The translations under genes and the position numbers were made by a program. A DNA stretch of 39,128 nucleotides from Phoronis australis (lineage: Eukaryota > Animalia > Phoronida), in assembly GCA_002633005.1 (NCBI GenBank), contig NMRA01001142.1, forward strand, positions 10,639 through 49,766, given 5' to 3'. The notes beneath the pieces are model-generated. The model had not been told where the DNA came from. It made no database searches and worked only from the letters and a program-made list of their open reading frames with translations. Below, piece after piece: positions 12,153-38,099 of this stretch (positions within the stretch are counted from its first letter, which is position 1; the number at the start of each line of letters is the position of its first letter).

Positions 12153-12941
12153 GTATGATTTATGTGTGAACATGCATTTCTTGGGTTAATTTGTGATTTG
12201 GATATTTTGCTTTAAGCTAGAGTGCGTGGATATCACAGGTTCACAGCTAGAGTTACTATTGTGTTGGGACCTGTATGTATTCCAATGCCAAAATTTGAGT
12301 TGCATATTTACGGGTATCAAAGGCACGCAATCCCACTTGAAGTGGTTATAAGCCTGTCAACTTTTGATTTAGACCACTTTGACCACTATAAAAATGATGT
12401 GACGTCTTGTGCTTTACTCTGAGAGAATTTATTTCTAGTTTGCAAGGAACTGGCAGTCTGTTCTTCCTTGAGACCATACTCAGTGCATAAAATGGCGTGT
12501 TGTGGACACAAGAAAACAAATTGTAGAGCCAGGTCTCAACCATTCACAAGTTCCTTTGAAGCTCTGATGTTATCTCTGTATTTGACTAAGGAACAAGTTG
12601 ATACCAATTTCATAACAATGTTTCAAATCAGAAGTTAGTTTTTGTGTTAAAAAGTGGGTTTGTAGCTGTTTTAAACTAATGAAGTGACCACCCTTTGCTA
12701 CTTTATGCCGTGGGTCTGAGCTTGTTATGATGAAAAGTATTGTGGGCTTTGGGTGAGTTTAGGAATATGATGCTCTGAGAATACTAAAAGTGAATTTCAT
12801 AGATACAAAAATTATGTCCTGAAGAACAGGCCATTGAACCACCATTAGAGAAATCATGAATCAAAAGTTATTTGAATAGAAAATTTTCACTTAAATATTT
12901 TGCTCTTAAGTTCCCAAACTGTCATTTTTCTATTTTTCAGA

Positions 12942-13313
12942 GGTTCATTTCCTTGCTACAAATAATGGGAATTTTACCAAATGAATGTTGTTTTATTACT
13001 CAGTTCTGTGTTGCCCTAACCAAGCTATGATAGACTTAAATTTATAATTTTGTAGAAAACTTTGACAAAATAAAATTTCAGACATATTTTGTGTTGTGGT
13101 GAAGATTTACCATGTATGGGACCAGAAAACTTTTTGTTGATAGCAATAAGGATGATGATAATGATATGAGTGGGTCCGGTTCATTTCCTTCCTGAAAATA
13201 ATGGGGATTTTACCAAATTTGGAACTTAGTTCTATGTTGTATATCCTAACCAAGCTATGATAGACTGAAAGTTATAATTTTGTAAAAAAAACTTCGACAA
13301 TATTTTGTGCTGT
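12942..13313. repeat. Diverged ~140-bp direct duplication (intronic)
   Basis: GGTTCATTTCCTT..TTTTACCAAAT..CCTAACCAAGCTATGATAGACT..TTATAATTTTGTA at ~12942 and ~13178. Confidence 0.8.
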
Positions 13314-13677
13314 AAACTTTCTACTTTCTACTTCAAAATTGATATCTGCTTGTTCTTAACTTACTTGAGAAGTGATTTCCGGATTCTAAACATTAACAGT
13401 AATTGTGATTGCTTGGGAGCTTGCTTGGCGTCAAATTTTCAGTTCTTTTTAAGCCCAAAAATCACCTCTAATTTGAGTAAGGAACAAACTGAGACCAATC
13501 AGTCCCACAGTGGGTAAATAGTCTCAATCAAATTTTACCTTGTCTGATGAACTTGAAGGTGAGTTTTTAGGAGATTTGATTATCATAGTTAGTAGCAGTT
13601 GTTTTGATAGTTATTGACTGATGTGTAATGCTGGTTGGATTGTCACCATCATTTAGCTCATTGCATTAATTTTTCAG

Positions 13678-13771
13678 GCCCAAAGAAGCCCAGAGCAGGC
13701 AAATGTAACAACTTCCACCAAATCTCGACAATCCGGCTCATATGAACATCTGCAAAATTTGGACTTTCGTG
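13678..13771 (+). CDS. TM-SH3 gene exon: linker with YEHL motif
   Basis: tttttcag| AQRSPEQANVTTSTKSRQSGSYEHLQNLDFR |GTAAC. Phases 0/1 consistent. Confidence 0.75.
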
Positions 13772-14033
13772 GTAACATGATATAGTGCAATATACAAGCT
13801 GTGTTTGTTGTCGTTTTTGTTTCCAAATATGATTTTCTCAATAATTTTTTTGTTTGGTAGTGATTGAAAAATAGCAGCAGATAGATTTCTAGTAATCAAG
13901 CTACTTCTTGTTGTTAAAGTTGACAAAGTTTGAATTGTATAAAAATTAAAAAATAGATAGTTCTGTAAACCTTCTGTCAACATCTGAGTTTTGGTTATGG
14001 TGACATCTGAACTGAACCATGTCCCCTTTACAG

Positions 14034-14221
14034 GCTCAAGATATTTCAAGGCTGTGTACTCCTACCAGAGCTCAGAGGATGGGGATCTGTGTTTCTTGGA
14101 AGGTGACATCATTGAAGCACTGGAAGGTGACCCTGAGGCCTGGGTCAAAGGTTACTTGGATCGTACCAAGATGGAGGGGTGGCTGCCTGGGAGTTATCTG
14201 GAACCAGTTGACTCCACACAG
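14034..14221 (+). CDS. TM-SH3 gene exon: SH3 domain 2
   Basis: YFKAVYSYQSSEDGDLCFLEGDIIEALEGDPEAWVKGYLDRTKMEGWLPGSYLEP. AG/GT boundaries, phases 1/0. Confidence 0.9.
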
Positions 14222-14588
14222 GTTTTACTTGACGAATGTCTACAATACATCAGTGTTGGGCTCAAATAATGTGTGTAGCCCAGAACCAACCTGTTTTTTT
14301 ATTTAAAACTTTTTTGGTCATGCAAGGTTGCTTGTTGTGGTGTTTCCAGCTTTTATTTGGATTGCCAATTTTTTCTAATTATAATATTGCTGTTTCTGTG
14401 CAATGATTTTATGTGGTTTTTCTGTGCAACGATTCTTTGGATTTGACCCTGTGTCTGCGCTTTCGTCTACTGGGCTATTTCGGACATGACCAGCAGGTGG
14501 CATAGAAGAGATTCATCATACTAATTACTTCTGCTACAAAATATCAGTGTGCTGATTTTGAATCATATTCGTCATTTTATTTATCTAG

Positions 14589-14676
14589 GACGATAAAACT
14601 GAGTATGCCAAACTATACGCACAGTTGAGGACATGTAACAGTGAAGCCACCGAAAACACAGCCACATTCGCTATTG
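14589..14676 (+). CDS. TM-SH3 gene exon: linker with TEYAKL / YAQL tyrosine motifs
   Basis: ttatctag| DDKTEYAKLYAQLRTCNSEATENTATFAI |GTAAG. Phases 0/1. Confidence 0.78.
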
Positions 14677-14895
14677 GTAAGATCTCTGATGCCTGCTTTG
14701 CCAACTAGGTCTAATAGCTGACTTCATACCATAATAAATACTACCACAAATCTGGCCTAGATGAAACTAGTTGCAAAATCTGTCATGCAATGCTTTCATG
14801 AATTGAGGGCATGAAATTGAACTCTGCTTGATCAAGTTTAAAATCAAATTTTGTTGCATATGACTGGCTGTACACATCTAAGGATTGTGAAACTG

Positions 14896-15143
14896 GGGCC
14901 CGTTCCAAGAAACTGACTTAAGTTCATTTTTGACTTAAGTCTGAGATTTGTCTTAACTTCTATACTTTGAAAATTCCACATCCGGTCAGATAGTTAAAAT
15001 TAGGATTGAACTTTTATCAAAAACGTAATTCAAACTTAGGATCTCTTGCTGAAAACAGTCTCGAGACAAATTTAAGTTTTATCTTAAAATTTACTAAAAT
15101 TTAAGATTTGTCTTAGCTAAGTCAGTTTTGTTGGAACGGGCCC
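14896..15143. mobile_element. PIF/Harbinger-type MITE in an intron
   Basis: TIR GGGCCCGTTCCAA(G/C)AAA(A)CTGACTTA at both ends. 3-bp TSD CTG (14893-14895, 15144-15146), the CWG type seen in animal Harbingers. Confidence 0.85.
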
Positions 15144-15297
15144 CTGGTCTACATTTCTATAAAGCACTTGTTATGCTTGTTTGCATGATTTATGCACAGG
15201 ATTGTGCCGAATTTGGAACACCAGAAGTCCTTTAGTATACTGTACTGTGATGACATTGTTGTGGTGGTTTGTATATATCAGCCATTGTCCCCCACAG

Positions 15298-15455
15298 AGC
15301 ATGTGGCGTTGTATGACTATGAGATCCAGGAAGAAGGTGACCTCTCATTTAAGTCTGGGGAAATAATTCTCGTTGTGGAAACCCTGGACAATGGCTGGTG
15401 GCTGGGCTGCATTGGTGCTGACAGGCATGGATGGTTTCCTGGAAATCTAGTGGAG
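15298..15455 (+). CDS. TM-SH3 gene exon: SH3 domain 3
   Basis: EHVALYDYEIQEEGDLSFKSGEIILVVETLDNGWWLGCIGADRHGWFPGNLVE, with canonical ALYDY, WW and GxFPxN. Phases 1/0. Confidence 0.93.
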
Positions 15456-15901
15456 GTGAAAATTATGATGACATTTTAAAATGTGACTTGTACACTGCAA
15501 TTGCTGCTTCCAATAACAGAGTAATCTGCTCAGTGTGTGCCTCATAAACTTGTAGAGCATAGGCAGATCCAGGATGGGAGGTCCAGACCCCATTTTCCCT
15601 TGAATTTAGTGATATCAAATCTGGAATTTTCAAATTGTTGACTTGAGTCTCCCTTTTTAAAAAAACCTTGATTCGATCCCCCTTTTAAAAAATCTGGATT
15701 TACCACCACGATATTTGACAATGAAATACTTTCAAGCTGCAATTGCCTGACAATCAGAAGACTACGGCTAGTAGCTTTTACCAATTTAATTGTTTTCAAT
15801 ATTTTGCTTGCTCTTGAGTACCAGCCCTGGGAATTCTAATATCAACTCTTATTTGCCCACATTGACCTGTGCTACAACTGTTATTGTGTGCACCATTGCA
15901 G

Positions 15902-15989
15902 CTAGTGGACGATATCCCCACAGAGCATGCGCCATCACCATACTTGTCATTGATAGCCAGCAGTGACTCGCAATCTCCTGGAGATAATG
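15902..15989 (+). CDS. TM-SH3 gene exon: linker with ITIM-consensus SPYLSL
   Basis: ccattgcag| LVDDIPTEHAPSPYLSLIASSDSQSPGDN |GTAAAT. Phases 0/1. Confidence 0.75.
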
Positions 15990-16445
15990 GTAAATACGGA
16001 TGAATCACTAAAAAGTCAATTATAGTCCTAGCTCATAGGAAAACCACAAGAAAACTACAGATTTCCTACAATTGTAGCAGGAGTGCTTCCATTGCGGTCT
16101 CTTGAGTGAACGACATTTATAAAAAGAGATCAGTTCTGTCACCTCTGGTCAACTTTAACGTTGCTACAATTCTTGAACCTTTTCTCAAAGTCTACAAAAT
16201 TAATGAATGTCGATCTGTACTACTTTTTCCCAGGGTTTTAATTGTAATTTTAGATTTGAAAAGGTGTGTCTGCTGACAAGTCCTTTACAACTTGTCCTAA
16301 AACAATACAATTTTTGAGTTAAGTTTTGAGTAAAGAGGTTAGAATCTGGACTCTGATCTTAAGTTTTCAGATAGTGTAATAGCTGTTGATATCTTTTATA
16401 CTCAAATCATTTCAATTATTGTCAAGCTTGAAAATATGTTTTCAG

Positions 16446-18184
16446 ATTACATTGAACCCATATCTCTAGAAACCAACACTTCATCCGCACCAGTACCAGT
16501 TGTAACTGAATCAGTTGAACCAGTTGTCCCACGCCCCCTCAGACCAGCACCATCAGTTCCATCCTCTATCTCTCAGCAGCCGAAGACCTCGTCACCATCC
16601 ACTTCAAGTGTGCCTAGTGGGATTGTTGCAAGTGACTCATGTCCTACAGGCAATGCTGGTGGTGACAGCGGAACAAACATTTCTCTTAGGGAGGTCCCAG
16701 TGCCACCTGGGGTTGAAAAACAAACCGATTCGAGTTCCAGCCATGATGAAAGTACTTCAAAAAATCATGGAAAATGTGATATAACTGAAAGATCGCATTC
16801 CAGTGGTCATGATGAACAGAAAAGTAAACGTGGGCAGGTGCCATACTGGAGTGACAATCATAGTAAACCAGAAAAATTCCACCAATTTGAAACAGGTCAT
16901 CAATCTGTGGCTCCTTCTAGTGAAGATCATGTCAGGACTCCACCACCCAGATATCCACCACCTCGCCTGCCTCCTGGTGCTAAATCAGACAAAATACCTG
17001 AGCATACAGTCAATGCAGATAATGCTGACCAGCCTAAACGCAGGTGGTTTAACTTGAGAGATGCAGCTGGAAAATTAATTCAGCGTCTACGAAGCACATC
17101 AGAATTGGAAGCACCCACTAGTCCAGGTGACAGTGGTGGCAGTCCATTGGAATCACCTGCTAGTTCTAGTGTAGTTAAGGAAATATCTGGTCCTGAGCTG
17201 ATGGAAACTACCTTCAGAGTTAGTAACTTAGTGAAGCGAGCGCCCAAAAGGCCAACTTCTCCTCCAAAGAGGCGACTAAATGCTCATTTTGTTACTGTTC
17301 CCAGTTCATCCAATGTGATGAAGGGTGTCAAACGTGCACCTCAGAGACCCCCTCCTCCCAAACGCCCTGCACTTCCATTGAAATCCAATATTAAACCAAA
17401 GCGGCCATCAAAACCCCCAAGCAGGATCCCTCCTAAGAGGCCTTCCTCGCCTCCATCAAGAGCTGTTCCAGCACCACTGGTGATGCACAAACAACATAAT
17501 GACAATTTGGTATTAAAAGGGCTTCAAAATGAAAGAAATGAAAATCAGAAACATGGTCAGCCTCTGATTAAACCACGTCCGCCTTACAAGATGAAAAATC
17601 CTGAAAAATTGATACCGGCTGGCGACAATGACAAACTGGTAGCTGCACCATTTGGAGTCGCTCTTCGTCATGTTTCTGTGGGTGGAAAAGAGGATACGAG
17701 TAACAAATCACCTGAAGGTGGTGTCATTACCATGGCAACTGAGAGTGACCAGGGCAAGTTGAAATTTAACCAGGTTTTAGATAATGTTCATAATAAGGAA
17801 AAGGAGATCCTGAGAAACAGCGGTGTTACAGTGGCCGAAGATTTTTCCAATCTTAAAGAGCATCCTCTCGTTGGGAAGGTTGCAATTCACACTAACAGTC
17901 ATACTGGCAAGGCAAAACCACCACTTAATGCTAAGCCAGTAATCTCGCCGAAACCTAAGACTATGCCAAAACCAATACCTGCTAGTGAGACCCTCAACTC
18001 ATCAAATACTCCTGAACCCAAGCCAAGACTCGCCACTAATCCTGTGACTGCCCTTCCCCATCCAAAACCAAGAGTGGGTGTACCACGCAAGGTTGTGTTG
18101 CGGAAAGCCATCAGGTCGTATCATTCTGCAGATACTGAGGAGTTGTCATTTGAAGCAGGAAGCTTTATTAAGGATATACGAGAA
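16446..18184 (+). CDS. TM-SH3 gene exon: ~580-aa Pro-rich disordered region plus first half of SH3 domain 4
   Basis: Long ORF with many PxxP/RxxPxxP motifs, ending LRKAIRSYHSADTEELSFEAGSFIKDIRE |GTAAGT. Acceptor tttcag at 16445. Confidence 0.9.
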
Positions 18185-19441
18185 GTAAGTCTGATACAAT
18201 GAATCACTGATCTTAGTGTCTTCTATGATACAAAACACAAGTTTGGAGTTGGATGCATTGGTTAAATGAGGAAGCTGAGATGCATACTTTTAGACCTTTG
18301 TATGGATAGCACCAAACTTCATATACACAAGGAATTGTGGGATAGCAGTCATCCAAAGCATCATGGCTAGTAGTATGTAAGCAAACAATCTGTAGAAGTC
18401 ATTCTTTGTTTAGTAGTACTTCAAGTGGGCATGAATGTTCAGTTTGTCATAGATGCATGCATAGAGGTATCATCTAAATCAAGTACCAGCTTACCGAGTA
18501 GACATTCACCTTTTTGTGACTTTGTGCATTGGATGACTGGTATCCCACGTTAAATCTGTGCTGTGGGATGCACATTGATTTTTGCTATTTGTAAAAAGGT
18601 TGGTGGTGCTATGAGTGCAGTTTTTATCTTGAGCATGCAGTGAAGCGTAAGAATTAGGTTTACAAAAGTTTTCTAACTTGCAGCTTCTAGATTTCACTTT
18701 GGCATCTCTGCTTATTGTGTTCATCTTGGGATCAAGCTCATCACAGTCTGCACCACTTTAACGTACTTCTTGTTGTAATGATGTCCTTTAAATCTAAATC
18801 ACAACTGAAGCCTTCCAGTTACCCCTGGTTATCCACATTCTCTCAGGCCCAGCTTCTGTTGAGAGTTAGTGACGCATATAATTAGCTTATAAGCCATGCT
18901 TGGAACTAATTTCCAATGAATAGCTCAAACTTTGGGTTTTTGTTGATAATATCATTTGTTCCATTTTTGAAAACTCAAAAACCCACAGTCTAATTTTTAC
19001 CACTGTATTTAGCTTTCATCATTCACACTGCTTTTCATGCCCCAAAAGAAAATGGAAAAGTACAGCCTGGATGCTTTCAAGCAACAGTTATTGCCATACA
19101 TGACCTAAGGAATAGAGTCATTCCTTCAATGACCAGCCCACTAGTGAGAAGGTTAACGTAGATAAAACCAGATGGGCTCACCAGGTGACATCGGAGGAAA
19201 ACAAATGATTTCACCCAATCAATCCTTATGCTTACAGCATGTATATTTGAGTAAAGCTTTGTAGATTCACAAGTGCATCGCCATCATGAGCAATTTTTGT
19301 CTTTGTTTACCTTACCATCAGTGACTTGTAGTTGTCTTGGAATTATGTTCATTTTCTTACAGGTGGACACCTTAATACTCAAGATGACCGAAACTGCTCT
19401 GTAGCACTGTTGTGACTATATCTTTGTTGTGTCTTATCCAG

Positions 19442-23900: not shown

Positions 23901-25418
23901 TTCCAGCATGACAAAATTTTAAGTTGTTTTCCACTATTTTTCAAATTTAATCTATCTCTTATGTTCTTGAACATTTGTTTGTAAAACTAATTGCCTACTT
24001 CTACCCGGTGTGTTTTTGTAGTTCAAGTACAAGAAATTCTTGACATGATGGAACAAACTTAACGGCCGTAGATATTCATATCTAAAAATGGTGTCTATGG
24101 AACAAACCTTGGCAGACACAGGTTACTGTAACATGCAATCACATACTCGACTGTATATTTAGGTCATGTTGTGAATCAGCACAACATGTATGCCTGTTAG
24201 TGATTTTTACTTTATTTTTTATATTGCGTTATCTACTTTTGTTATTCATGCAGTTTCTATTCAGTTCATATCTTTATATGTTAGTGTTTTCATTTATGTT
24301 TTCTTAATTCTTTTGCGGACGTTTTGTGCTATGCTTGTGTCTCACTTGTGTGTTTATTTGTTTTCATTTGTCTTGTATTTTTTCTTGTATTTCCTGTACT
24401 TTTTTGAAGCTTAATAAAAGCAAAAACTACTAAGAGCACTTTACGCGCTTGAAACCTAGCCTTATCGTTTTGTCTGTCGGTTATAAGGAAGACTTGAGAT
24501 ACGAAGGAAGTACCTATGAAACATATCAGATCAAAACAGAGTACTATTTACTGTATACACAAACCACTGAAACGCACACGATGTTCTCTTCGTTCTGGAT
24601 CAGTGAGTAGCAAACGATTAGAGATAATTTATATAAATTGACGGAAATTTTCACAATTGAAGACGAAAATAGATAGTTCCCGTCCGTCTGTTCGTCGCCG
24701 TCCATGTCCGCCAGAGTGTTGGTTTCATCAGTTTTGGTAAGTTTTGAATGAAAATTTTGAACTATTGAAGTATCAATATGCCGATAGTTTCATGAGAATG
24801 GTAATGCATACAAAAATAAATCATTTTGTTTCCAATCCTATTGCTTGTCCTTGATTTTGTGGCCTAGATTTTTCTTGACACTCTGCTCCCAGCCGAGTAA
24901 GTCGAGTTCACCACACACTTGACGCGTAACCCTTTCGCTAAATAACTATTTGTATTTACAGAACGAGGCACGCCTGAGATGTTAGTTTCAATTGGAACAC
25001 AAGTTTGCCTATGTTTTACAAATCAGAAATCTTACCTTTGCCTTTGGCTGTGATACAGTCAGTGTGCCAGTTCCACTCCAGACCAATCATATAGATAGTG
25101 ACCGTGACGTGACCACCGTCTAGGGCTACGACCTTAGTCAGAGACGATGAAGCTCCTATCGGTGCTTCATAAGCATTGGAAGCTTTTCGGAAAATACACA
25201 CTGATTCAAATATCAATGTCATGTTATTAACCTTAGAAACCGTCGGTGTCTTTAATTCCTTCTAAGAATCTAAGTTGAGCAAATACTCCTGAAAAATCAA
25301 ACTTTTTAAACCTTCGTTAAGTTGCCCAAATCAGCAACGCCTAAGGCCAGGAGAGACTGTGGTCAATGTCTATAGTGAGACTAGTAATAATAATTACTCT
25401 CTGTACAAATGTTTGTAA

Positions 25419-25921
25419 TGTTGTGAATGTGCTTCCGGTGTATGAGCCTCTGTTAGCCACTCGCTAACGGGCAATTGCCTATTAATTAGCTGAATGGTTA
25501 GCACGCTTGGCGGTTAAATTGGGGTCGCTGGCTCGATTCCCGAGGTCGGGCAATCTCGGCTATTACCACAATTGACGTAGTCGGCAGGAGGACCTTAAAG
25601 CGAGACAATCTTGGGGTTCATCTGTCGGTCGGATATTCTGGGAGGTAAAAATCCAAGAGTAATATCTTGTGATGTAGTCCAGGAGTAAAATCCTGTGATG
25701 ACCACAGGAGTAGAATTCTGTGTTCACCTGCAAGGTGGCGCGCTTGTTCATAGGAAAGGGGGAAATGTTGTGAAATGTGCTTCCGGTGAATCATATATTA
25801 GCCTCTGATAGCCACTCGCTAACGGGCAATTGCCTGTTAGCTGAATGGTTAGCACGCTCGCCGGTTGAATCGGGGCCACTGGTTCGATTCCCGAGGTCGG
25901 GCAATCTCGGCTATTACAAAA
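25419..25921 (+). mobile_element. TRIM (miniature non-autonomous LTR retrotransposon) with tRNA-derived sequence in both LTRs (Helenus/Cassandra-like design)
   Basis: LTR1 25419-25570 (TGT..ACA) and LTR2 25766-25921. PBS TGACGTAGTCGGCAGGA at 25573 is complementary to a tRNA-Ser 3' end. PPT AGGAAAGGGGGAAA at 25752-25765. 4-bp TSD GTAA. 195-bp non-coding interior. Confidence 0.9.
25832..25903 (+). promoter_or_regulatory. tRNA-like Pol III internal promoter inside LTR2 (more diverged copy at ~25477-25552 in LTR1)
   Basis: A box TAGCTGAATGG and B box GGTTCGATTCC at tRNA spacing. D-arm GCT..AGC. Partial acceptor stem GCCTG../..CGGGC. Anticodon arm is non-canonical, so this is not called a functional tRNA. 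Confidence 0.75.
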
Positions 25922-25970
25922 GTAATGTCATTAGTAACAGTATTCTCCCTGACCGCTGTTAACGTGTCGC

Positions 25971-26068
25971 AGCGTCCTGTTTTGCTGAACGTGCGTCCTG
26001 TTTAAATGTCCCGCGTCCTGTTTAAAAGTTTCGCGACCGGTTTAAAAATTTCATGACCGGTTTAAAAA
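25971..26068. repeat. ~20-bp imperfect tandem repeat (GCGTCCTGTTTAAA / GACCGGTTTAAAAA), ~5 copies
   Basis: Directly visible. Probably the subterminal array of a small DNA element beginning CAGTATTCTCCC near 25938. Confidence 0.7.
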
Positions 26069-28390
26069 ATAGGGACCAGTTCGTAAAAAAAGGTGTCATC
26101 ATCGTTAATAAGGTCTTCAATGGTTCAAATTACGCTTGACAGCAACAGGCCATAGCCCTTTGAAACTGAATAAAGGCTCCGTGGTGAGTTGCCGAAAGCC
26201 TAACCACCGATCTCACTCAAGCGGCAGACCGGGCCCCTAGGCTATTTATGGTGCAACGCGGCTTGTAAATAATCTCAATCATCTTTTCAATTCATCTCAG
26301 ACAACTAGTCATAGTCCTTTGAATTTTAACAAAGGCCCAGTGCCATCTATAAGCCTAAGCCACTAGGCTTACCTGCTCAATGGAGGTGCAGTCCGGCACG
26401 ACAGTCGCTGATCGTTACGTTAGTCCTAATCGCTTTTGTAGTCACCTTTTGTGTTCGGCAGACAACTGATCACATAACCCATTGAAAATTATTTAGACTC
26501 AATGGTTAGTTCTGCGAAGTCTAACTAGCCAGCAGAAACACCTTTGCGCAGGAGTTTTTACAATGGCTGTCTTTTGGGTGGCCAAAATTTTATTTTCGTA
26601 GCGCGTTTTTCAATATTCCGTGGGCCCCACGACATTACCGGCACCAGTCTCAACAAAACTTTGCATGCAGACGCTTTTGATAACTGTCATTGGTTGTTGT
26701 TTGGGTATTTATCACTTAGATGAACATTATTGGTTACTTTTGGTGCCACCAGCCCATCGAGAGCACGGAATTCATCTCATTGCCTTATAAGGAGTTTTGT
26801 TGGCAGCATGCGCATTATATTTGTGAGCGTACTCCTTCTGAAAATCTGCCTAACAGTTCGCAACAACTTCGGTTGCGGGCGTGCGTGACGTTTGTGGTTT
26901 TGGGGGAGTAATCGGACATTTGGGACAGCTAGTGATGTCGCTGGGTAAAGTTCAAAATATATGTCTCGCTCTGAGAAATTGTAGCCAAAATCACGTGCTC
27001 TCATTGAAAATATATGGTGATATCTCGTGTAATCTCGCAAAGTCTTGTTTTCCTTGCTTGGTCCTTACGTTGTTGAACTCTATCCTGGCTTCCGTTACCG
27101 ATTGACATGTGCATTCTACACACTTAGTAATGTCGTCTGCCATGTGAAGGCGTAGAAGGACTGCTAAGGATTATTTTGAAAACCGAGAGATATTTCAGAT
27201 ACTGACGTTGACTCAGATGCAGATACGCCAGATAATCCAGGTCTGGATGATGGTGATAATGCCGGGCTCAGTCAACGAATAGCAAATGTCCGTGTTATGA
27301 ACGGTGGACCGAATTTTTGCCGCCAACATCCGACATCGGCATTCTTAGTCTTACAATTCTCTTCAACTTGCGTTTAGAATATATGGTTCTCAGCTGGAAG
27401 ATTGAGTTTGTGACAATCCGGAAAATTATGTAAATTCCATAGTTGTAAGCTTTTGACAATCCAGTCGACATCTTTTTATAAATATTGGTTTTTGTCAATA
27501 GGCCTAACACTCTCGTCCATGTATATGGAAAACGCACGTGGATCGTTTTGTTTACTCTACCTAATTTGTATTCAGTGGAGGGATATTGTGCTATTTTTAC
27601 AAGAATTGACCCTCAGAATGCTGTGCACAACATTGGACTGAGAGAAAACCTAGGACCAATATCAAAAGGACTGGCAACTGCTTCAAACAACAAAGAAAAC
27701 CCCAAGTCTCGCTATATTATGATCGCCACGCGAGAATTCGCGGTAGCATTGGTTTGCCTTGTTTGCCATCGCCATATTTGTTCTCGGTTGGTCTTAGAAG
27801 TCTCTGGTGTAATTCGACAAGTAATCTTATACTTTCCACGGGATATTACTCTAATAGAAGGTAAGACATTTCCTATAGATCTGGTTGAACGATTGATGTG
27901 GTAAATTCATAGTATAAAACTCGAGGTCATCTGTACTTTGGTCGTAAGTTTCGACTTCGTTCCCCCGCTTTTGGTCGCTTGCACTCGCTTGGATGTGGAA
28001 AGCAATTTATCGAATTTGTGAAAATCTACCAATTTGTTACTGAAATTGTAAGCAAATGCAACCACAACGAACATTGAAATAACCAATATCGTGAACAGTT
28101 GACGAAGTCCATTTTTTTATTGTTTTGGTTTTTCCCTACAAACGAAGATCAAAAATGCGCGTAATATTGGAATTGATTGTAAATGCCTTAACTGCGTCTG
28201 TATCAACACGGAAATCGTGAATTTCGTAACATTATTCAGAAATTCGTTTGCGTTGTTGAGTGTCATATTTATGCAATTTCAGTTAAAGCGATATTATTAT
28301 TTTGGTGTGACGGAGCCGTTTTATCACAAAAAAAACTTAATTAGTTGATAAAAACTTCAAAAAAGATTAAGGAAATAATGTGATTGAAAT

Positions 28391-28618: not shown

Positions 28619-29604
28619 TTTTTCTTGGCTTTATTGTTGCAGCTTTATTCAATCACCTCCGTTCTGAGCAGTTTGATTTTACTGTCAGTTGTGAATGTCC
28701 TTAAAGTTACTGCCTATGTTCATTAATAAGGATCTAATTTCTTCTATAACTTCAATTATTAATAATCAGGACTCAACATAATGACCAGCTGGTCGCATTT
28801 GCGATCTGAAATTAGGAAATGCAAGCTGAGATTTTGCCATGTCGTGTCAAGTTGTAAAATGCAACCTAGAATTTCCAACATACACTTCTTGGCAGGTATA
28901 AAGTAACTTGCATGAATCCGACCATTATTTGGTTGTTGCCAAATCAAATTCAAAAGAACACTAATCAAGAAAAGCCCACCTGATGACTTATAAGCATGTC
29001 GCGTGAACATGGAATACTGCAGAATTGATCTTCAACGCATTTCATTTTTGGCTACTTTTGCAAATTTCTAACTGTGCCGAAGAGAGTTTCGGACCACAGC
29101 ATAATGTGTGATAAAAGGACATAAGACAGGTGTTTCTACTAAGTCCTAGACAATCAACTTGACAAACTTTGTGATGGAAAATAAATTTATTTTTCAAGTA
29201 AGATGTCCTTATTATCAAATATCCACGACAAAATCCTTGATGTTGCTCTGCGCACTGGTCGGTGCCGTTGTTAGCGCACAAGCCACACTCCCGGCAGACC
29301 ACCGTGGCTTGGAATTGTGCATCTCGTTCTTTATCGTAAAAGATCTAAATAGATTCCCGGCAGTTATGAAAGATCCTAGGCCTTGTTGATATTACTCGGG
29401 ACTGATTTTTATAGCATCGAGCCCTGATAATAGACCCACAAAATGTATATTTTTCAAATCCCTGAGGATCCTCTAGGATTTCAAAATGTATAGTTTTATG
29501 GGTCTACTTTTAAGTATTGAAAAGTTATGTAAAAGTGACTGTTTGACATAAAGATCAATATTTTGAAGAGACTTCACATATTGCAACATTCTGTGTTTCA
29601 GAAG

Positions 29605-32346
29605 ATGCCAAAACCGCCAAAACGCAAAAAGTTTGGCATCGCAGTAAGGAGAAAAAAAGGAAGAGTGGTCACGAGACATGCTGAACATCCGTATTCATGT
29701 GTGAGTCTGCCACCGGAACACTTGCCACATCCTTCAGTTGGTTCATCGTTTTGGGAAATTCCCAATTTCAATGATGTTGGCAGTGGGTACGTCCATGAAG
29801 AAAAGATGGACCTTGATGGTCATCATGCGGACGAGTTTTATGTAATCTTGGACAGTGGCCCCGTTCTCGTAAGTCCAGACACAGACACTGACGTTTTGTA
29901 CAAGGACTCCGCATATGAAAAACTGAGAGAGTGTGTGAAAAACCTTGAGCCACCAGAGGGCTATTTTTACTACTCGAAGTATAGCTGTATTCAGTATGTC
30001 AGTCTGATTGAAAGTATCAACCCCTCTGTGAATGTCTCAGTGACTATACATAGATATTTTTCTGCACATGTGAATGTTCACACAAAAATGTTGCCTGGTT
30101 CTAGTGATTTTTGGACTGGCTTACCCAAACTATATAAGTCTGTCAGTGATGTAAGTAGGTTACTCAATAGATTGTCTATGTTTGAGGTGTGTCGTGGGAA
30201 CGATAGGGAGGACTTCCAGTTCTTAGTTCCTGTTGGGTGTGGTATGTCAGGTAGTAAGGCACAGTCAATTCAGGCCTATCGGGAAATGTATAATTGTCAA
30301 TCAACAATTAGACATGTAGCTTGTGAACTTCTTGTCTGGCAAGGCCAAAGATGCTGTAGGTGTAGGCTGTATAGTGCCACTGTGCGCAAATCCCTCTCTA
30401 GGTGTACTACTGGAAGTCGTAATGCTCAGTCAGAGAGCTTAGTCTCAAGTCGAAAAAGGGAGAGCTATATGACACCAAAAGAACTTAAGCAAAAACTTGC
30501 CGAAAGCAAGAAAATACGCACTCAGTTACATCATGAAGCGGAGAGTTTGCGAAAGCAGATAGATGCTTTGATTCAAGTTCAGGGTTTAGTTTTACCTGAG
30601 ACTGACAGTTTTCAATTGTTTAGTATGGTTAGTGACCACCAGGGCGAGGTGGAGTCTGCCTTCCCGGAAAGCGATAGCTTTCAGCGGCTGTTTTGGGAGC
30701 AGCAAGTTATGTACAATAAGACCAATAAGGGTAAGGGGATGCGTTGGCACCCCATGATAGTACGCTGGTGTTTGTACTTGCGTTCCAAGTCTAGTAAGGC
30801 TTATGAAGCCATGAGGTCGAGTGGATTTATTTCTTTGCCGTGTGCGCACACCTTATATGATTACAGTCATTTTACTGTAAGTGGATGTGGAATACTACCC
30901 GACGTGCTTGGCCTTTTAAAGAGTGCGTGTAAGAAACAGGGTTGTTATGACGTGCCTCATAAGCGGTTTGTCGGAATTTTACAAGATGAGGTTAAGGTAC
31001 AGGATGACCTGGTTTACGACAAACATAGTGGGGAGTTAATAGGATATGTAGACCTTGATAGTGTAGGAAATCAACTGCAGGAGCTTAGGGACACACTAAG
31101 AAATCAGGCAGCTATTGTTGCTCGCTATGTTCTCATTGTTATGGTTAGGGGTGCCACTTCTGGCTTGAAGTTTCCTTTAGCTAATTATGCCACTGATGGG
31201 ATTTCTAGCTACTTTTTATACCCTATAATATGGAAGGCCATAGAGGTATTGGAAGTTGACCTTGACCTTCGGGTGATATTTATAACATGTGATGGGGCCT
31301 CTCCCAACAGGAAATTTTTTCATTTACATAGGGTTAGGGCTGATCATCATCTTGATAGAGTTATTTACAAATGTTTAAATCCCATGTCTCCTGATCATTA
31401 TTTTCTATATTTCATATCAGACCCACCTCACCTGCTGAAAACTTCTCGCAACTGTTTCAGCAATATTCAGGTGGCCATATCAGATCAAGAAACTTGTGGA
31501 ATGGGCAAGAAATAACATGGCGTCATATTGTTAGGCTCTTTGAAGAGCACTGTGAAAATAATCTGTATACGTTATGTCCCAAGTTAACCAGAACTCATGT
31601 GTATCTCACACCCTTTTCCAGAATGAAGGTGAATTTAGCTGCTCAGATTTTGAGTGCCACTGTTGCCAAGGCGTTAGAATTTTACTATGGTGCAGAAGTT
31701 AGTAAAACCGTGCGATTTATCTCTATAATGAATAAGTTATTTGACTGTCTGAACACGAAAAATTTAGATGAAGGTGTCAGGAGTCGCAACCCACAGGTTG
31801 ATGCATATAGATGTGTGAATGATGACAGGTTAAAGGAGCATGCCACCCAAAAAACAACCTAATTTGTATCAATTTAGATCGAGTAGTTCTCCTCGATAGC
31901 GGCACGTACGGTTGCGTTACCTGACACCNAGCCTTTAAGGTGGCTATTGAATGATTGTCTTGTTACTTTCGACAGTGGCGTGAAACAGTTAATACTGTTC
32001 CTGGTCTAAGCAAGGCTAAAAAAGCAAAAATGCTTCTGAGTAATCAAACTCTGGAGGGTATAGAGTTAAGTGTTCGATCAATTTGTGAATTGACTGTGTT
32101 TTTGTTGAACAGTGGTGCCCCATTTGTATTAACCTCTGCTTTTAATCAGGACCCCTTGGAGCAACACTTTGGCATTATCGCCACAAAGGTGGGGCAAACG
32201 ACAACCCAACTGTTCGTCAAGTGCAGCAAATCATGACTGAACTTAGAACAGTAGGAGAGTTGGCTTTAAATAGGCGAGGTAATGTTCAAGTAGGTCCTGA
32301 TTCTTGTCCAGCCATTGACGACACCCCTCTACCTAGAAGGCATTAG
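29605..32346 (+). pseudogene. P-element/THAP9-like DDE transposase lacking a THAP domain, disrupted
   Basis: Motifs RWHPMIVRWCLYL, QDEVKV, TCDGASPN, SDPPHLLKTSRN, PKLT..H..FSRMKVNLAAQ, LFDCLN, NQDPLEQHFG and GGANDNPT. Frameshifts near 31465, 31955 and 32172, plus an insertion at 31834-31934. Stop TAG at 32344-32346. Confidence 0.93.
31834..31934 (-). mobile_element. Kolobok insertion (same family as 5576-7223), collapsed across an assembly gap
   Basis: 31834-31928 is a near-identical reverse complement of ~7129-7223. AGG..CCT ends with TTAA at 31830-31833 and 31935-31938. N at 31929. Excision restores D-R-L-R-W-L-L. Confidence 0.88.
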
Positions 32347-32785: not shown

Positions 32786-33581
32786 TATTGTTCTCTGTAG
32801 TATTAACTTTGAATTTTAGAGTGAAAATGAAAGCGAAGAAATGAATAGCTACATGGGTTTTTCTCGAAGATTCTTGACGAAGCCTGAACATCCCCTCATA
32901 AAAATGGAAGCAAAATGTGACTTGATTGCACATTTGTTTGTCTCAAGTAAAATTACCAAGTTTCAAATAGGTCTGGCTAGAGGCAAGTCCCTTCGAGAAT
33001 TAGACCCCAGCGTGTCGCATTGTTTTTATCTCGCGAAAATATTTTTCTGACGTTCTCAACNATGTTTTCTTATATATATTATTAAGTGACGTCATTTGCG
33101 ATAAACCCAAGCGCCTGTGATTCACTACTATGAAAACATGCGTTTCTATTATTAGCCATCGGGAAATTCGAGCGCCTGTGGTTGACTGGTGTTATGGGCA
33201 TGCCGATGGGGAGATCGGAGGGATTGGAAAAAGTCACCGCTTTTTGCAAGTTGTGTTTAGTTTAGTTGTTGATTATGTGTGGATTGTTTATAAAACCTAG
33301 GACCAATATTGTTCTCTGTAGTATTAACTTTGAATTTTAGAGTGAAAATGAAAGCGAAGAAAAGAATAGCTACATGGGTTTTTCTCGAAGATTCTTGACG
33401 AAGCCTGAATATCCACTCCTAAAAATGGAAGCAAAATGTGAATTGATTGCACATTTGTTTGTCTCAAGTAAAATTACCAAGTTTCAAATAGGTCTGGCTA
33501 GAGGCAAGTCCCTTCGAGAATTAGACCCCAGCGTGTCGCATTGTTTTTATGTTGCGAAAATATTTTTCTGACGTTCTCAAC
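32786..33581. repeat. 275-bp near-identical direct repeat (32786-33060 and 33307-33581) spanning an N
   Basis: The copies differ by only a handful of substitutions. The first copy ends exactly at N33061. Confidence 0.9.
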
Positions 33582-33698: not shown

Positions 33699-35221
33699 TT
33701 AGGAATTCACTTCCTTCAGAGATTTACGGAAAGAATTACCACCTTGTGATGACACTCCCCTCTTGTTCTTCTTTCCCAACAGTTTGGTAACAGCGAATCC
33801 TCTAACATTAAAAAAAATCTTGATTAACACTTCGTTCAGAATCACAGCCTTACTGAGCTTCTGCCACAGATTTTTCACAGCTGCATCGCACAATATAGTT
33901 TCTGTAAGACAGTTTATGTTCATTGACGTTTTCTTGAGATTAGAAGTGTCGACCATGGATCGCGCCACAACCTCATAACATTGAATCAAATGAAAACAAT
34001 CGAGTGACGGAGTCTTTAATCCTCCTCTGCTAACTTGCCTGATCCGTTCAGTGTGTGGATACTCTTTCTCAATGTCTTTGCATGTGAGGTACTTACAAAG
34101 TGACATCATGTCCTCCCTCATGTGTTTTGGTGCCTTTTGTGGTGATACTCTTAACATGTAACCAGCAATGTGACACAGGACAAGATTGTCATCTTCAGTC
34201 AATGCATCAGTGTGTGTCTTGTTCTTTTCTTGCGTGTTTTTCTTCAAAAGCGCAATGACGTCCTCCAATAACTGGAACAGGAACACTTGGGTAAATTGTT
34301 TGTTCATACTTCGAGTTTACACCAATATCAGTGAGAAAACCAGGATCATGCCTCAGATCATGAAACCCCAGCATTAACTGCTCAAAATCTCCTTCAACTG
34401 TTACCCCACATAACGCTGAGGACAGCAAGGCAGCAAATTTCGAAATTAAATTCTGAAACTTCGCATTGATGTCTTGACCTTCGAGCTGAACTTGTTTGGC
34501 GATGAGGACAATCTCTTTCCCATGAACCGAAGCTGGACTATTTCTAAAGGGACAGTCCACAATCTTGCATAATGATATTTGTATAGCATGCACAACTGTC
34601 TCCGTAAAATTTTCACGAGGAATGGCTGGTTCAACATTTTCTTTCCCAGGTGAATGTCTTCGGTTGTTGTGTGCTGCAAATGTAAAATGAATACATTAAT
34701 GGGGCAAAGTACACCACATGACTGAGCCTGAGAATGTACATTGACACTTAAATTGACATGGATCATGAAAAGTCAAAGAGGTACTAACTTAAAAGCTACG
34801 TGTGTTACACTCAGTGGCCCCAAGGCATCACTGTCGTAAGATATGATTATTTTCCCTACTTATTTTCCCAACTATAATCCTAACACTCCAAAGTCGACAT
34901 TTTCACAATCAATATTCATTTACCTTTCAAATCCGGTCGCTGATGCTTCTTAATACCGTGTCCGCGAAACCCACTGATGGAAGAATAGCTTTTGTCACAC
35001 AGAGGACAATCAAATTTGTTGCCATCGGCACTAGCACCAACGAAGGTAGTGGATGTTGCAGTTTCATCAGCAGGCAAAGTGCTAGGTTCTTTTCTCTTTT
35101 TCGAGATTTCGTACCCTGAGAAATCGGGCTCATCATTGCTTTCCTCCTCCGCAGTATAATCGCCCAACAGTGCGTCTAAATCTACGTCACTCCAGTTCAC
35201 GAAGTCGTCGTGTTTGTTCAT
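33699..35221 (-). pseudogene. Transposon accessory gene: acidic N-terminus, C2H2 zinc finger and [YH]IAGY..SRGGL..PS domain; two exons, one frameshift
   Basis: Exon 1 35221-34924 (FDCPLCDKSYSSISGFRGHGIKKH). GT-AG phase-1 intron 34923-34674. Exon 2 joins ORF 34207..34593, then frameshifts near 34310 into ORF 33699..34307 (LCHIAGYMLR..VSRGGLKTPS..FFNVRGFA). Confidence 0.8.
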
Positions 35222-35785
35222 AATTCACTTCTTAACTCACAACAGATGTAATGTGCTTTTAAAATGCAGTAAAGTAAAAGAAACCAGTAAAAATCAGCAA
35301 AGTGAAAGAAAAGACTTCTGAATACAACGTATATTCCAATTGGCTTATAAATGAAAAACGCCGACGTAGAAGAAACCACCGGTGCTGCGCCAAATAATTG
35401 CAGGAATTACACGACAAAACAAGACTACGCTGCGGCGAAACTCGGAAAAATACGTCCCCTATAATTCTAAACGTATACATCAGATATTTTACGGATGAAA
35501 GAACCAATTTCCCGTATGATTAACATTTTGAGACCCCAAGTCGCAGTAAAACTAGATTTTATGCCCACGAAAGTAAAAAACGCTCATCACTGACCCATTT
35601 TAAGGCTATTTTTAACAGATAAAAAAACAACAACGAAGTACAATTTCAAGTCAGTTGTATTCTACGTGCTCTAATTAGTACAATCAATGCATTTACAATT
35701 AATGACAGAACTTTAACATCGTCAAATTTTCAATAACAACACCTACAAGAATCACAAGGATTCTAATGCTGTGAAAGGGCGTGTA

Positions 35786-37539
35786 TTTAAAAATGGCTGC
35801 CAATGTTGTTGATTAAGTGGGCATGCCTGACAGTGTTGACATGGGCTGAACTGTGGTTCTGGCACTAAGTAAATCCGATTATTTCGCTTTGTGAGCCTGA
35901 ATAGCGAGGCAGTCATAGTACAATAGCGATGAAAGTTGGGCTTGAAGTTTCCACTCCCTATGTATATTACTACCTCAGAATGCTGTGCACAACATTGGAC
36001 TGAGAGAAAACGTAGACTTGGCTGCGAAGATATAAAATTGCGACTGGCTTTACGAAGTAATTTCACTTGTCCTGTCTACTTCGTCTGAAAAGTTTACTTT
36101 ATCTTAGACTTTTTGGACTTCGTTGACATTGAAATCACAAGTATTGAGTAAAATATTTCATTCTGTTTCAAATACGTCGGTAGGAGTGTAGACTTCCGTT
36201 TCAAAGTTGTCGACTAAACAAATGGGTTATGTGATATGTTTGTAAATAAGTCCACCTTTTAGAAATAAAGAAGTTGAACAAACCGTTAGTTGTTTGCAAT
36301 ACTGTGCATTACTGTTGAAGTGCGTGGGTAAAAATAAGGTGCACACTAGCCTACGGAGAACATTGACCACTGCGCGGTTCCGGCATGTTTGTTGCAGTTT
36401 TTACACATGCGACCCGTTTAGATTTTCAGATGTGGAGAACACTGAATAATGATTGACTGAAAACCGTTGCTCGACAAAACATCAAGCAAAGCTAGCACAT
36501 TCGAGTAGAACTGGTTTATGGCTGGATGCCACCAAATTTATGTCTCCATTTAAGTGTAAGTTGCCTGCTGATGTAGTCTCTAACACTAGTGACACCCTTG
36601 ACGATTACTTTTGAAACACGTTGTTCCTCAGGTTCTTGACCTACGTTCCCCTTGCAGAAAATGGCCTCCCAGAATGTTTTACAACGTCTACAACAGAGGG
36701 CAGAAGCAGCAGAAGCACTGTTATCCACCTTAAAAAAACAGCTCAACGTAATTAGATCCTCCACTCAGGCTAATGGTCTAATAGGTATGTTGACCTTGAA
36801 GTATTGTTGCAGATTGTCTCATCTATCCATACTTTCTAATTTCTCAATACAGTACTCCCTGCTCAAAAATCTCTAAGGCATATTATTGACAAAAAAGTTA
36901 CTGAAGGTGGCACTGTATATCAGGCAAGACCATGCCATTGGTTTTCAGCACTTAAAAACATTTTATTAGATTTCTTTGGTCCTGCGTATGAGGACCGGCC
37001 TATAGATGTAGTAAAATCTATCACAGTGAAGACTGTCTATAACCTTTCAATACTGAATTCTTCCCAGGTATACTTGGAATTTTCCGCGGAAACGCGGATT
37101 TCCGCTTTTTTCAAATATGCTTTCCGCTTTTCTCATAATATTTCCGCGTAAAAAAAATCAGATTTGATATAAAATTTCCGCGACAAATTCCTTTCTTACC
37201 GCGGGGTTGCAGACGACGTTCACCTCGAAAAGCGGAAGTTGCTCTTTATGTTTCGGAGGAACGTAAATTGTCAACATTGCCGGGGCATCTGGGACAGCGT
37301 GGTGGGATTTTCAATGGCATCTCATGTTATTGTTAAGCGCGGCGACAAATNTTTTTAAAAATGGCTGCCAATGTTGTTGATTAAGTGCGCATGCCTGACA
37401 GTGTTGACATGCGCTGAACTGTGGTTCGGGCACTAAGTAAATACGATTATTTCGCTCTGTGAGCTTGAATAGCGAGGCAGTCATAGTACAATAGCGATGA
37501 AAGTTGGGCTTGAAGTTTCCACTCCCTATGTATATTACT
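35786..37539. repeat. 186-bp dispersed direct repeat (35786-35971 and 37354-37539)
   Basis: TTTAAAAATGGCTGCCAATG..TATATTACT is near-identical in both places. The second copy starts just after N37351. Confidence 0.9.
36661..36784 (+). CDS. AIMP1: First coding exon of probable aminoacyl-tRNA synthetase complex-interacting multifunctional protein 1 (p43/pro-EMAP II)
   Basis: MASQNVLQRLQQRAEAAEALLSTLKKQLNVIR resembles the AIMP1 N-terminal coiled coil (M..AVLKRLEQKGAEADQIIEYLKQQV). Acceptor ccccttgcag| and donor G|GTATGT. The remaining exons were not found in the window. Confidence 0.72.
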
Positions 37540-38099
37540 CCCAGAAATCACCCAGGCAGTACCACGTTGTCTCATCAGGACGGGATAGACATTTCTATAT
37601 GCTAACAATTTATTATACATGTTTCTTGATCTATATATGTATCGCCTGATCACCACGAATCCTCCCTATGCTTTGGCATAACGGTTTGCTCTGCGGCGCC
37701 TTCGGGTCTCTCCGTCCCCTCGCCCCCGCCCCCCGCCTTTTGGGTATCATAAACTGTTTACCCCGAATAATAAAACAATGTGTTTAAATTTTTCTTTTTT
37801 ATCAAAAAAGCCAAAAATAACGTTGTTGCAGAATAGAGTGCCGACACACTGGGGATTTGCTTAGTAGAATTTCGTTATTAACTTTTGTCCAACTGTTTGA
37901 CGGACCAATAGCCTACTAATTGAATACTAAGTGTTTCAAAGTCTCTTTCGATTGTCCACAAAAGGAACAAGAGTCGTCATCCGTAACTTGAATTATTTTT
38001 GAAAATGAGTTAGTAGTCAAAATTCTCGTCAAGAGCCGAAGCCACCTAATTCGTGGATCTCTTGTTGTACGTGTTAAACATCTTCCCGTGAAAAATTAG

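What the first reader, a model, noticed from the sequence alone, without database searches (positions are those of the whole stretch)
25419..25921. 503-bp TRIM whose LTRs carry a tRNA-derived Pol III promoter
Seen: complete miniature LTR-element anatomy (two ~155-bp LTRs, PBS, PPT, GTAA TSD) with no coding capacity. About half of each LTR is a tRNA-like A-box/B-box cassette. Knowledge: the PBS matches the tRNA-Ser 3' end (expected TGGCGTAGTCGGCAGGAT, 16/18), and a 4-bp TSD fits Gypsy integrases. Plant Cassandra (5S in LTRs) and animal Helenus-type elements (tRNA in LTRs) are precedents for the design. Inference: a SINE/LTR hybrid transcribed by Pol III and mobilised by a Gypsy partner. The class is known but this family may be uncatalogued. 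I saw no run of four or more T on the + strand across the element, which is compatible with Pol III read-through.
Basis: partly seen in the sequence, partly recalled or inferred. Interest (0 to 1): 0.75.

Follow-up and report, generated by a model that had tools for sequence, protein, structure and literature searches.

The report
Helenus-type tRNA-promoter mini LTR retrotransposon
This is a real but aged 503-base, gene-less jumping element from a multi-copy family in an animal genome, with tRNA-like promoter boxes in both end repeats, a design described in 2024 as Helenus; it is likely copied by RNA polymerase III and likely borrows a Gypsy element's enzymes, and a short palindrome beside its promoter appears, by eye, to be shared with fish, bivalve and ribbon-worm relatives.

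Summary
Observation confirmed: LTRs 25419-25570 and 25766-25921, tRNA-Ser PBS (16/18), 14-nt PPT, GTAA on both sides, A/B boxes in each LTR. Public reads show a multi-copy family with at least two internal-region types and two more insertions with matching 4-bp flanks (left-right pairing inferred). This copy is old (LTR K2P 0.086), with a damaged PBS, 5' B box and 3' end. It meets the structural definition of animal Helenus (Kojima 2024), so it is a new family of a known kind. The scan has noted this type before in other genomes. Corrections: box conservation is only a trend (p 0.05-0.15); 44-94% of the laid depth from other copies has a T4 run between the boxes; RNA-seq shows no start pile-up; Pol III use and the Gypsy partner are untested; the host phylum was not placed. 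Addition: an inverted repeat plus a 10-bp palindrome directly before the A box. By eye, the palindrome stands there in 52 of 116 published animal Helenus families across three phyla and in Ajax, with changing self-complementary centres. That hints at one ancient lineage and possibly an RNA-dimer signal.

The parts
25415..25418 (+). 5' target-site duplication (GTAA)
   Evidence: identical to 25922-25925
25419..25570 (+). 5' LTR, 152 bp, TG...CA; 7-bp gap and 4-bp insertion relative to the 3' LTR; the 4-bp insertion is absent from many other copies
   Evidence: table 4
25452..25468 (+). 6-bp inverted repeat with 5-nt spacer in the 5' LTR
25470..25479 (.). perfect 10-bp palindrome in the 5' LTR, just before the A box
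25487..25497 (+). A box, 5' LTR
   Evidence: fits the TRGCY / YGG pattern given in PMC10886601
25530..25540 (+). B box, 5' LTR, with one substitution in the conserved core that other copies mostly lack
   Evidence: table 3
25573..25590 (+). primer-binding site complementary to the tRNA-Ser 3' end (16/18 in this copy)
   Evidence: most other copies match the tRNA at the early mismatch (table 3, table 7)
25654..25722 (+). three tandem ~25-nt units in the internal region (25654, 25680, 25705), each a 5-bp stem with a 6-nt loop; the first has a compensatory pair; candidate packaging signal (inferred)
   Evidence: 25573-25722 folds with z -3.63, 0 of 200 shuffles as stable
25752..25765 (+). polypurine tract abutting the 3' LTR
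   Evidence: PPT-LTR junctions in other copies (table 7)
25766..25921 (+). 3' LTR, 156 bp; terminal CA decayed in this copy, present in other copies
   Evidence: table 7
25807..25823 (+). inverted repeat with 5-nt spacer in the 3' LTR (one mismatch private to this copy)
   Evidence: table 3
25825..25834 (.). perfect 10-bp palindrome in the 3' LTR, 3 nt before the A box
   Evidence: strongest self-duplex 12-mer in the element (-19.6 kcal/mol); 1 of 2999 random window 12-mers as strong
25838..25848 (+). A box, 3' LTR; no variant listed at the 10% threshold in any of four runs
25881..25891 (+). B box, 3' LTR
25922..25925 (+). 3' target-site duplication (GTAA)

Best explanation
This is an aged, full-length copy of a multi-copy non-coding LTR retrotransposon (TRIM) of the Helenus type, likely transcribed by RNA polymerase III from the A/B boxes in its 5' LTR and likely reverse-transcribed and integrated by an autonomous Gypsy element. 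Shown: two LTRs, tRNA-Ser PBS, PPT, 4-bp TSD, A/B boxes, many other copies, at least two internal-region types, and no coding frame. Inferred steps: (1) TFIIIC/Pol III binds the boxes and starts about 12-14 nt before the A box, at the G-run that opens the palindrome (spacing recalled from tRNA-derived SINEs, no call). (2) The RNA runs through PBS, internal hairpins and PPT into the 3' LTR. In this T-run-free subfamily it would end at the first T run beyond; in the T4-bearing subfamily a leaky T4 between the boxes could end it inside the 3' LTR, as described for Cassandra. (3) The RNA is packaged by Gypsy Gag, possibly as a dimer through the 5' palindrome. (4) tRNA-Ser primes minus-strand and the PPT plus-strand synthesis. 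(5) A Gypsy integrase makes the 4-bp TSD. This copy is probably dead: 8.6% LTR divergence and damage to PBS, 5' B box and 3' terminus.
For: Anatomy. PBS identity. Multi-copy: 619 X1 contigs laid on the 198-bp 3' LTR stretch; summed depth over the LTRs about 6e3-1e5 against 15-305 in the left-flank bins, internal region about 550-1000 (the tool warns that this is no copy number). Other copies end in CA, followed by the PBS or by unrelated flanks (25 X1 contigs, agreement 0.43). Two more insertions have matching 4-bp flanks: GAAG (left 43 and 44 reads, right 26 and 21 reads in X6 and X7) and GCCC (left 90, right 127 reads in X7); the fifth base differs in both. A second internal type shares 14 PBS bases and then diverges. 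A box 0 of 11 and B box 2 of 11 positions variable against 10 of 32 in the spacer. Animal Helenus are defined with 4-bp TSDs and Gypsy-like PBSs, 311-1263 bp long. No T3 in the element, 0 of 2000 shuffles.
Against: No direct sign of Pol III transcription. Three RNA runs (about 18-19% of each read) show no place where many molecules begin or end. 81-89% of laid reads run on into unlike sequence, and the internal region has depth 2-10 against 50-100 on the LTRs, which fits LTRs carried in host transcripts; library type is unspecified. Box conservation is not significant (p=0.052 and 0.15). A T4 run lies between the boxes in 44% (X1), 77% (X4), 81% (X6) and 94% (X7) of depth at 25868, which could stop Pol III early in the 5' LTR. 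No autonomous partner was identified. No empty site was seen: both X1 haplotype contigs run from the left flank into the LTR. Left-right pairing of the two other TSDs is inferred from read counts, not from spanning reads.
Confidence: 0.75

Rival explanations
1. The element is a true TRIM, but the tRNA-like piece is a relic. Copies are transcribed by Pol II (from U3 or by host read-through) and the boxes do not drive mobilisation.
For: No start pile-ups, and most RNA reads run on into unlike sequence. T4 between the boxes in much of the family. Box conservation only a trend. Kojima states that Pol III function of Helenus is not validated.
Against: The A box is invariant in four runs and lies in the deepest, least fragmented part of the LTR. 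This copy has no T3 in 503 nt (0 of 2000 shuffles). U3 before the module is only about 40 nt. Standard RNA-seq can miss uncapped non-polyadenylated RNA (established knowledge).
Confidence: 0.2
2. Two tRNA-derived SINE copies (or a local duplication of one) happen to flank a spacer and mimic an LTR element.
For: The LTR core is far more abundant than the internal region, and some sequences share only the A-box region (X1 loose ends at 25837).
Against: PBS 2 nt after a CA end, PPT abutting a TG start, the same junctions in other copies and in a second internal type, 4-bp TSDs at three loci, and no poly-A or simple-repeat tail. LTR excess over internal parts is also reported for Helenus solo LTRs.
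Confidence: 0.03
3. The LTRs carry functional tRNA genes that the element spreads.
For: ARAGORN calls a tRNA-Ser-like fold over the 3' LTR at the relaxed threshold ps80.
Against: No call at default, ps95 or ps90. No Rfam tRNA hit at E<=10. No cloverleaf in the MFE. The 5' acceptor strand is replaced by the palindrome, and the anticodon-arm region is the most variable part.
Confidence: 0.02

Closest known systems
Animal Helenus (TRIMp3), Kojima 2024, PMC10886601; nearest by eye: the bivalve, nemertean, coelacanth and LTR-11_DR-like fish families with a palindrome before the A box (e.g. Helenus-1_LimFor, -1_MoPh, -1_CGi, -1_LiLo, LTR2_Lch). Read: whole main text; supplement parts 1 and 5-11 of 11
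   Same: Non-coding, under 1 kb, two LTRs with tRNA A/B boxes, 3'-end tRNA PBS, PPT, 4-bp TSD, LTRs outnumbering internal parts, no working tRNA; inverted repeat plus palindrome directly before the A box
   Different: Its tRNA-Ser PBS sequence is not among those in Fig. S2 (the listed Ser types are different 3' ends). No listed animal family matches by eye. No T run after the B box, unlike most families. Tandem internal hairpins. Host lineage not placed.
Ajax (5S-derived TRIM of nemerteans), same paper
   Same: By eye the same palindrome before an A-box-like motif; no T run in the LTR tail
   Different: Ajax has a 5S internal control region in place of a B box, a 5-bp TSD and a tRNA-Leu PBS
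Cassandra (plant TRIM with 5S rRNA in its LTRs); known here from Kojima's introduction and a search listing only
   Same: Pol III promoter inside both LTRs of a non-coding LTR element
   Different: 5S rather than tRNA promoter; plants; Pol III transcription shown there, not here
Ty1 PAL1/PAL2 dimerisation palindromes (PMC6844567, abstract read)
   Same: Short self-complementary sequence near the (predicted) RNA 5' end of an LTR retroelement
   Different: Ty1 is an autonomous Copia-type Pol II element; the role here is an analogy only, untested
biv-TRIM of bivalves (PMC6934838, passages read)
   Same: Animal TRIM
   Different: No canonical PBS; tRNA similarity and hairpins lie in the internal domain; no Pol III promoter mentioned

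Membership tests
Helenus (animal TRIMp3) | Non-coding LTR element under about 1 kb with two LTRs | tested here: met
   503 bp, LTRs 152 and 156 bp, no ORF of 100 aa or more
Helenus (animal TRIMp3) | tRNA-like sequence with A box (TRGCY...YGG) and B box (GGTTC) inside the LTRs | tested here: met
   Both boxes in both LTRs, 32 nt apart; intact in the 3' LTR, one substitution in the 5' B box; relaxed ARAGORN hit only at ps80
Helenus (animal TRIMp3) | PBS complementary to a tRNA 3' end just after the 5' LTR | tested here: met
   16/18 to human tRNA-Ser; the host's own tRNA was not available
Helenus (animal TRIMp3) | PPT just before the 3' LTR | tested here: met
   25752-25765, and in other copies
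Helenus (animal TRIMp3) | 4-bp TSD | tested here: met
   GTAA here; GAAG and GCCC at two other loci, pairing inferred
Helenus (animal TRIMp3) | Interspersed multi-copy family with excess or solo LTRs | tested here: met
   exact copy number not obtainable without the assembly
Helenus (animal TRIMp3) | A/B boxes more conserved than the rest of the LTR | tested here: inconclusive
   2 of 22 box positions variable against 10 of 32 in the spacer (p=0.052) and 23 of 108 elsewhere (p=0.15), after setting aside 4 changes private to this copy
TRIMp3 (functional sense) | Transcription by RNA polymerase III | not testable with these tools
   No start pile-up in X5, X6, X7; library type unsuited or unknown
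Helenus (animal TRIMp3) | Autonomous Gypsy family sharing the PBS | not testable with these tools
   No host genome held; none recognised in the window
A named Helenus family of Data S1 | Sequence identity to a published consensus | tested here: not met
   All animal entries read by eye; element-specific short motifs gave 0 hits, apart from one chance 8-mer and generic B-box and PPT words (FASTA line breaks can hide hits). Repbase and Dfam could not be searched.
Cassandra / Ajax | 5S rRNA-derived promoter in the LTR | tested here: not met
   No 5S hit in Rfam at E<=10; a tRNA-type B box is present
Functional tRNA gene | Cloverleaf passing ARAGORN or Rfam thresholds | tested here: not met

The most novel reading that the evidence does not exclude
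The inverted-repeat + palindrome + A-box module marks one ancient, cross-phylum clade of Pol III-driven TRIMs (coelacanth, ostariophysan fish, two thirds of bivalve families, nemertean Helenus, Ajax and this element), against the published view of separate origins per host lineage. The palindrome, whose centre changes among at least ten self-complementary tetramers, is the genomic-RNA dimerisation signal at the very 5' end of the Pol III transcript, which lets these parasites be packaged by unrelated Gypsy helpers without LTR homology.
Probability: 0.25. Interest if true: 0.65.

Novelty: new member of a known kind. Interest (0 to 1): 0.36.

Why it matters
As it stands it adds one more Helenus family, with a primer type not listed before, to a class described in 2024, and such LTRs can inflate tRNA-gene predictions. 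The part that could matter is the palindrome module. Kojima notes that it is unknown how a TRIM's dependence on its helper is kept when the LTRs share no sequence. A covarying self-complementary element at the predicted RNA 5' end gives a concrete, cheap test (covariation analysis, RNA dimer gels). It also bears on whether fish, mollusc and nemertean families arose once or several times.

Tried and rejected
Whole genome: none held, so no genome-wide BLAST, partner search or copy alignment. No other copy in the window. Rfam: one chance lncRNA hit at E 3.7 over the element, nothing at gathering level in the window. Host placement failed: three homologue searches with SH3-gene exons found nothing, the Atlas gave generic P-element clusters, and the representative search gave only generic SH3 proteins, 56% identity at best. 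Target-site preference for GTA(N): suggested by two loose-end consensuses and one contig, rejected as unproven because those consensuses mix PPT-flanked and random flanks and the two other TSDs differ. A 24-nt perfect hairpin over 25818-25841 (z -3.03) depends on a base private to this copy, so it is not taken as the family structure. Hammerhead ribozyme in the LTR: considered by eye, core not present. No RNA holder was listed for the stretch; this is no evidence either way. Run X4 is labelled DNA by a guess and one LTR-bearing contig there has depth 550, so it may be expression-weighted. Literature: five- and six-term searches for other tRNA-bearing animal TRIMs or a palindrome/dimer signal in non-autonomous LTR elements gave only the Kojima paper and works citing it, general SINE/LTR papers, or nothing. 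'palindrom', 'hairpin', 'inverted' and 'dimer' have 0 hits in its main text; its figures could not be seen, only legends. Earlier scan notes: none for this sequence or genome, none on this module; the four notes holding both words concern other palindromes.

Full report
1. Observation. The anatomy is real. The element runs 25419-25921. The 5' LTR is 25419-25570 (152 bp, TG...CA). A 2-nt spacer precedes the PBS at 25573-25590, the PPT is 25752-25765, and the 3' LTR is 25766-25921 (156 bp). GTAA lies on both sides and does not extend to 5 bp; a 4-bp match has a chance of about 0.0045. The LTRs differ at 12 of 148 aligned bases plus 12 gap columns (K2P 0.086). The PBS matches 16 of 18 bases of a human tRNA-Ser template printed in PMC3299991 (passage read). 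Each LTR has an A box and a B box 32 nt apart. It is not a working tRNA: ARAGORN is blank at default, ps95 and ps90 and calls one tRNA only at ps80, and Rfam gives no tRNA at E<=10. No ORF of 100 aa or more overlaps it. The + strand has no run of three T; 0 of 2000 dinucleotide shuffles lack T3 and 22.8% lack T4.

2. Other copies. No host genome is held and the window has no second copy, so I used public runs (eight listed, six laid). In run X1 the summed contig depth is 15-305 over the left flank, about 550-1000 over the internal region and about 6,000-144,000 over the LTR bins. 619 contigs lie on the 198-bp stretch around the 3' LTR. The tool warns that this is no copy number, so I read it only as a multi-copy family with LTRs far in excess of internal parts, as tabulated for Helenus. 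Loose ends show that other copies begin with TG and end with CA, followed by the PBS or by unrelated flanks (25 contigs, agreement 0.43), so the terminal CA has decayed in this copy's 3' LTR and the TSD sits where the family's ends predict. A second internal type shares the first 14 PBS bases and then diverges (X4, X5, X6). Two other insertions show matching 4-bp flanks: GAAG (left 43 and 44 reads, right 26 and 21 reads in X6 and X7) and GCCC (left 90, right 127 reads in X7), with the fifth base differing in both. No read spans both ends, so the pairing is inferred; only the best-supported 24 loose-end rows were shown, 191 were not. No empty site was seen.

3. Single copy: refuted. Other copies lack TSDs: not so at the two loci that could be read. 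Boxes more conserved: inconclusive. Of positions with a variant at 10% or more in any of four runs, after setting aside four changes private to this copy, 0 of 11 are in the A box, 2 of 11 in the B box, 10 of 32 in the spacer and 23 of 108 elsewhere; one-sided Fisher p=0.052 and 0.15. The deepest part of the X1 profile (25824-25851) is the palindrome plus A box. Four or more T is the usual human Pol III stop signal (PMC3141230, start of abstract in the listing).

4. Expression. In three RNA runs (about 18-19% of each read) LTR depth is tens to about 240 per strand class; in X5 the internal region is 2-10. 81-89% of laid reads run on into unlike sequence, and no start or end pile-up is listed. 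This fits LTRs inside host transcripts. X6 has LTR-PBS (68 reads, mixed) and PPT-LTR (36 and 18 reads) junctions, so some full-length-type copies are transcribed, by an unknown polymerase. These data neither show nor exclude Pol III.

5. (a) The internal region holds three tandem ~25-nt units, each a 5-bp stem with a 6-nt loop, one with a compensatory pair; 25573-25722 folds better than all 200 shuffles (z -3.63). (b) Before each A box is a 6-bp inverted repeat with a 5-nt spacer and then a perfect 10-bp palindrome. It is the strongest self-duplex in the element, matched by 1 of 2999 random 12-mers of the window. Inverted-repeat arms and palindrome have 2 of 22 variable positions (p=0.15), both driven mainly by one expressed locus in X7. 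Reading all animal entries of Kojima's Data S1 by eye, a palindrome directly before the A box, mostly preceded by a similar inverted repeat, stands in 33 of 51 bivalve, 2 of 2 coelacanth, 14 of 14 ostariophysan (13 with the inverted repeat) and 3 of 3 nemertean families, and in 2 of 2 Ajax. It is absent from 3 Lingula, 1 ctenophore and 40 wasp families (some wasp LTRs have a different long hairpin there). Two sturgeon/paddlefish families have a looser analogue that I did not count. That is 52 of 116 animal Helenus entries. It was not seen in the fungal LTRs of supplement parts 1 and 5; parts 2-4 were not read. Among the 33 bivalve cases, 22 have a strictly palindromic 4-nt centre of nine kinds (a tenth in fish), 2 pair through G-U and 9 have one unpaired central base; flank mismatches are mostly G-U. 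A hairpin loop need not be self-complementary, so this pattern suggests pairing between two RNA molecules. This is an eye count with no alignment, tree or null model. The paper's main text has no mention of palindromes, hairpins, inverted repeats or dimers (figures not visible) and speculates that mollusc and fish Helenus arose separately. In Ty1, palindromes in the 5' UTR are needed for RNA dimer formation and mobility (PMC6844567, abstract).

6. Mechanism. Shown: structure, family, TSD length, primer type. Inferred: Pol III start about 12-14 nt before the A box (spacing recalled from tRNA-derived SINEs), read-through to the 3' LTR, packaging by Gypsy Gag (perhaps via the palindrome and the internal hairpins), tRNA-Ser priming, PPT priming, Gypsy integration. 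The Gypsy assignment follows Kojima: only Gypsy elements share PBS regions with animal Helenus, and animal families make 4-bp TSDs while fungal, Copia-dependent ones make 5-bp TSDs. I put 0.75 on this whole reading, 0.2 on a Pol II-transcribed TRIM with a relic tRNA, and little on SINE pairs or working tRNA genes. This copy is probably inactive.

7. Relation to known families. It works like, and meets every structural criterion of, animal Helenus (PMC10886601; whole main text and supplement parts 1 and 5-11 read). It is not one of the listed families: no match by eye, element-specific motifs gave no hits, and its tRNA-Ser PBS is not in Fig. S2. Repbase and Dfam could not be searched. Helenus is reported from six animal phyla. 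The host here is an animal-type genome with spliced SH3 genes and P-type transposases, but its phylum could not be placed, so a new host record is not claimed. Later papers in the library add nothing on animal Helenus (PMC12859917 passages). The scan's own notes hold 61 findings with the words TRIM, Helenus, tRNA, LTR, Pol III in at least 16 genomes; these are unchecked and are not used as support.

8. Verdict. Real feature; new member of a known kind; interest 0.36. The boldest reading not excluded is one ancient cross-phylum clade with a 5' palindromic RNA-dimer signal: probability 0.25, interest 0.65 if true.

Noticed in passing
window 25938-~27650: A second high-copy repeat begins 16 bp after the TSD: diverse flanks before 25938 in other copies and depth in the thousands, 20-bp subterminal tandem repeats at 25993-26081, and 43 bp at 27611-27653 shared at 98% with 35973-36015. 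Likely a non-autonomous DNA transposon; no clean terminal inverted repeat or TSD found.
   Followed up: partly
window 29539-31862 (+): P-element/THAP9-type transposase in two overlapping frames (PF21787, PF21788).
   Followed up: partly
window 5700-6071 (+); 33699-35224 (-): A THAP domain (PF05485) and further transposase-like or zinc-finger ORFs without a Pfam hit.
   Followed up: no
window 11850-18202 (+): Spliced gene with three SH3 exons, a 600-aa proline-rich exon and the start of a fourth SH3-like segment; no close relative found. A Ser/Thr-rich ORF at 7882-8772 may belong to it.
   Followed up: partly
window 25167 (table 5c, run X1): One contig (depth 44) joins flank sequence ending at 25167 to an LTR start, perhaps another insertion of the family in a paralogous or allelic copy of this flank.
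   Followed up: no
window 25890-25901 and 25539-25550: A second, imperfect self-complementary 12-mer right after the B box (self-duplex -16.8 kcal/mol); it is variable among copies.
   Followed up: partly
PMC10886601 Data S1, Helenus-2_SyJa-LTR and Helenus-2_SyUm-LTR: By eye these two wasp LTRs seem to hold a hammerhead-ribozyme core after the B box (motif recalled, no call), which would make them Helenus-retrozyme hybrids; the text read does not say so.
   Followed up: no
window 1-754; 32786-33581; 35786-37542: A degenerate GAT/GGT-type tandem array at the window start, and two near-identical direct duplications (275 bp at 97%, 189 bp at 96%), each next to an N, possibly assembly joins.
   Followed up: no
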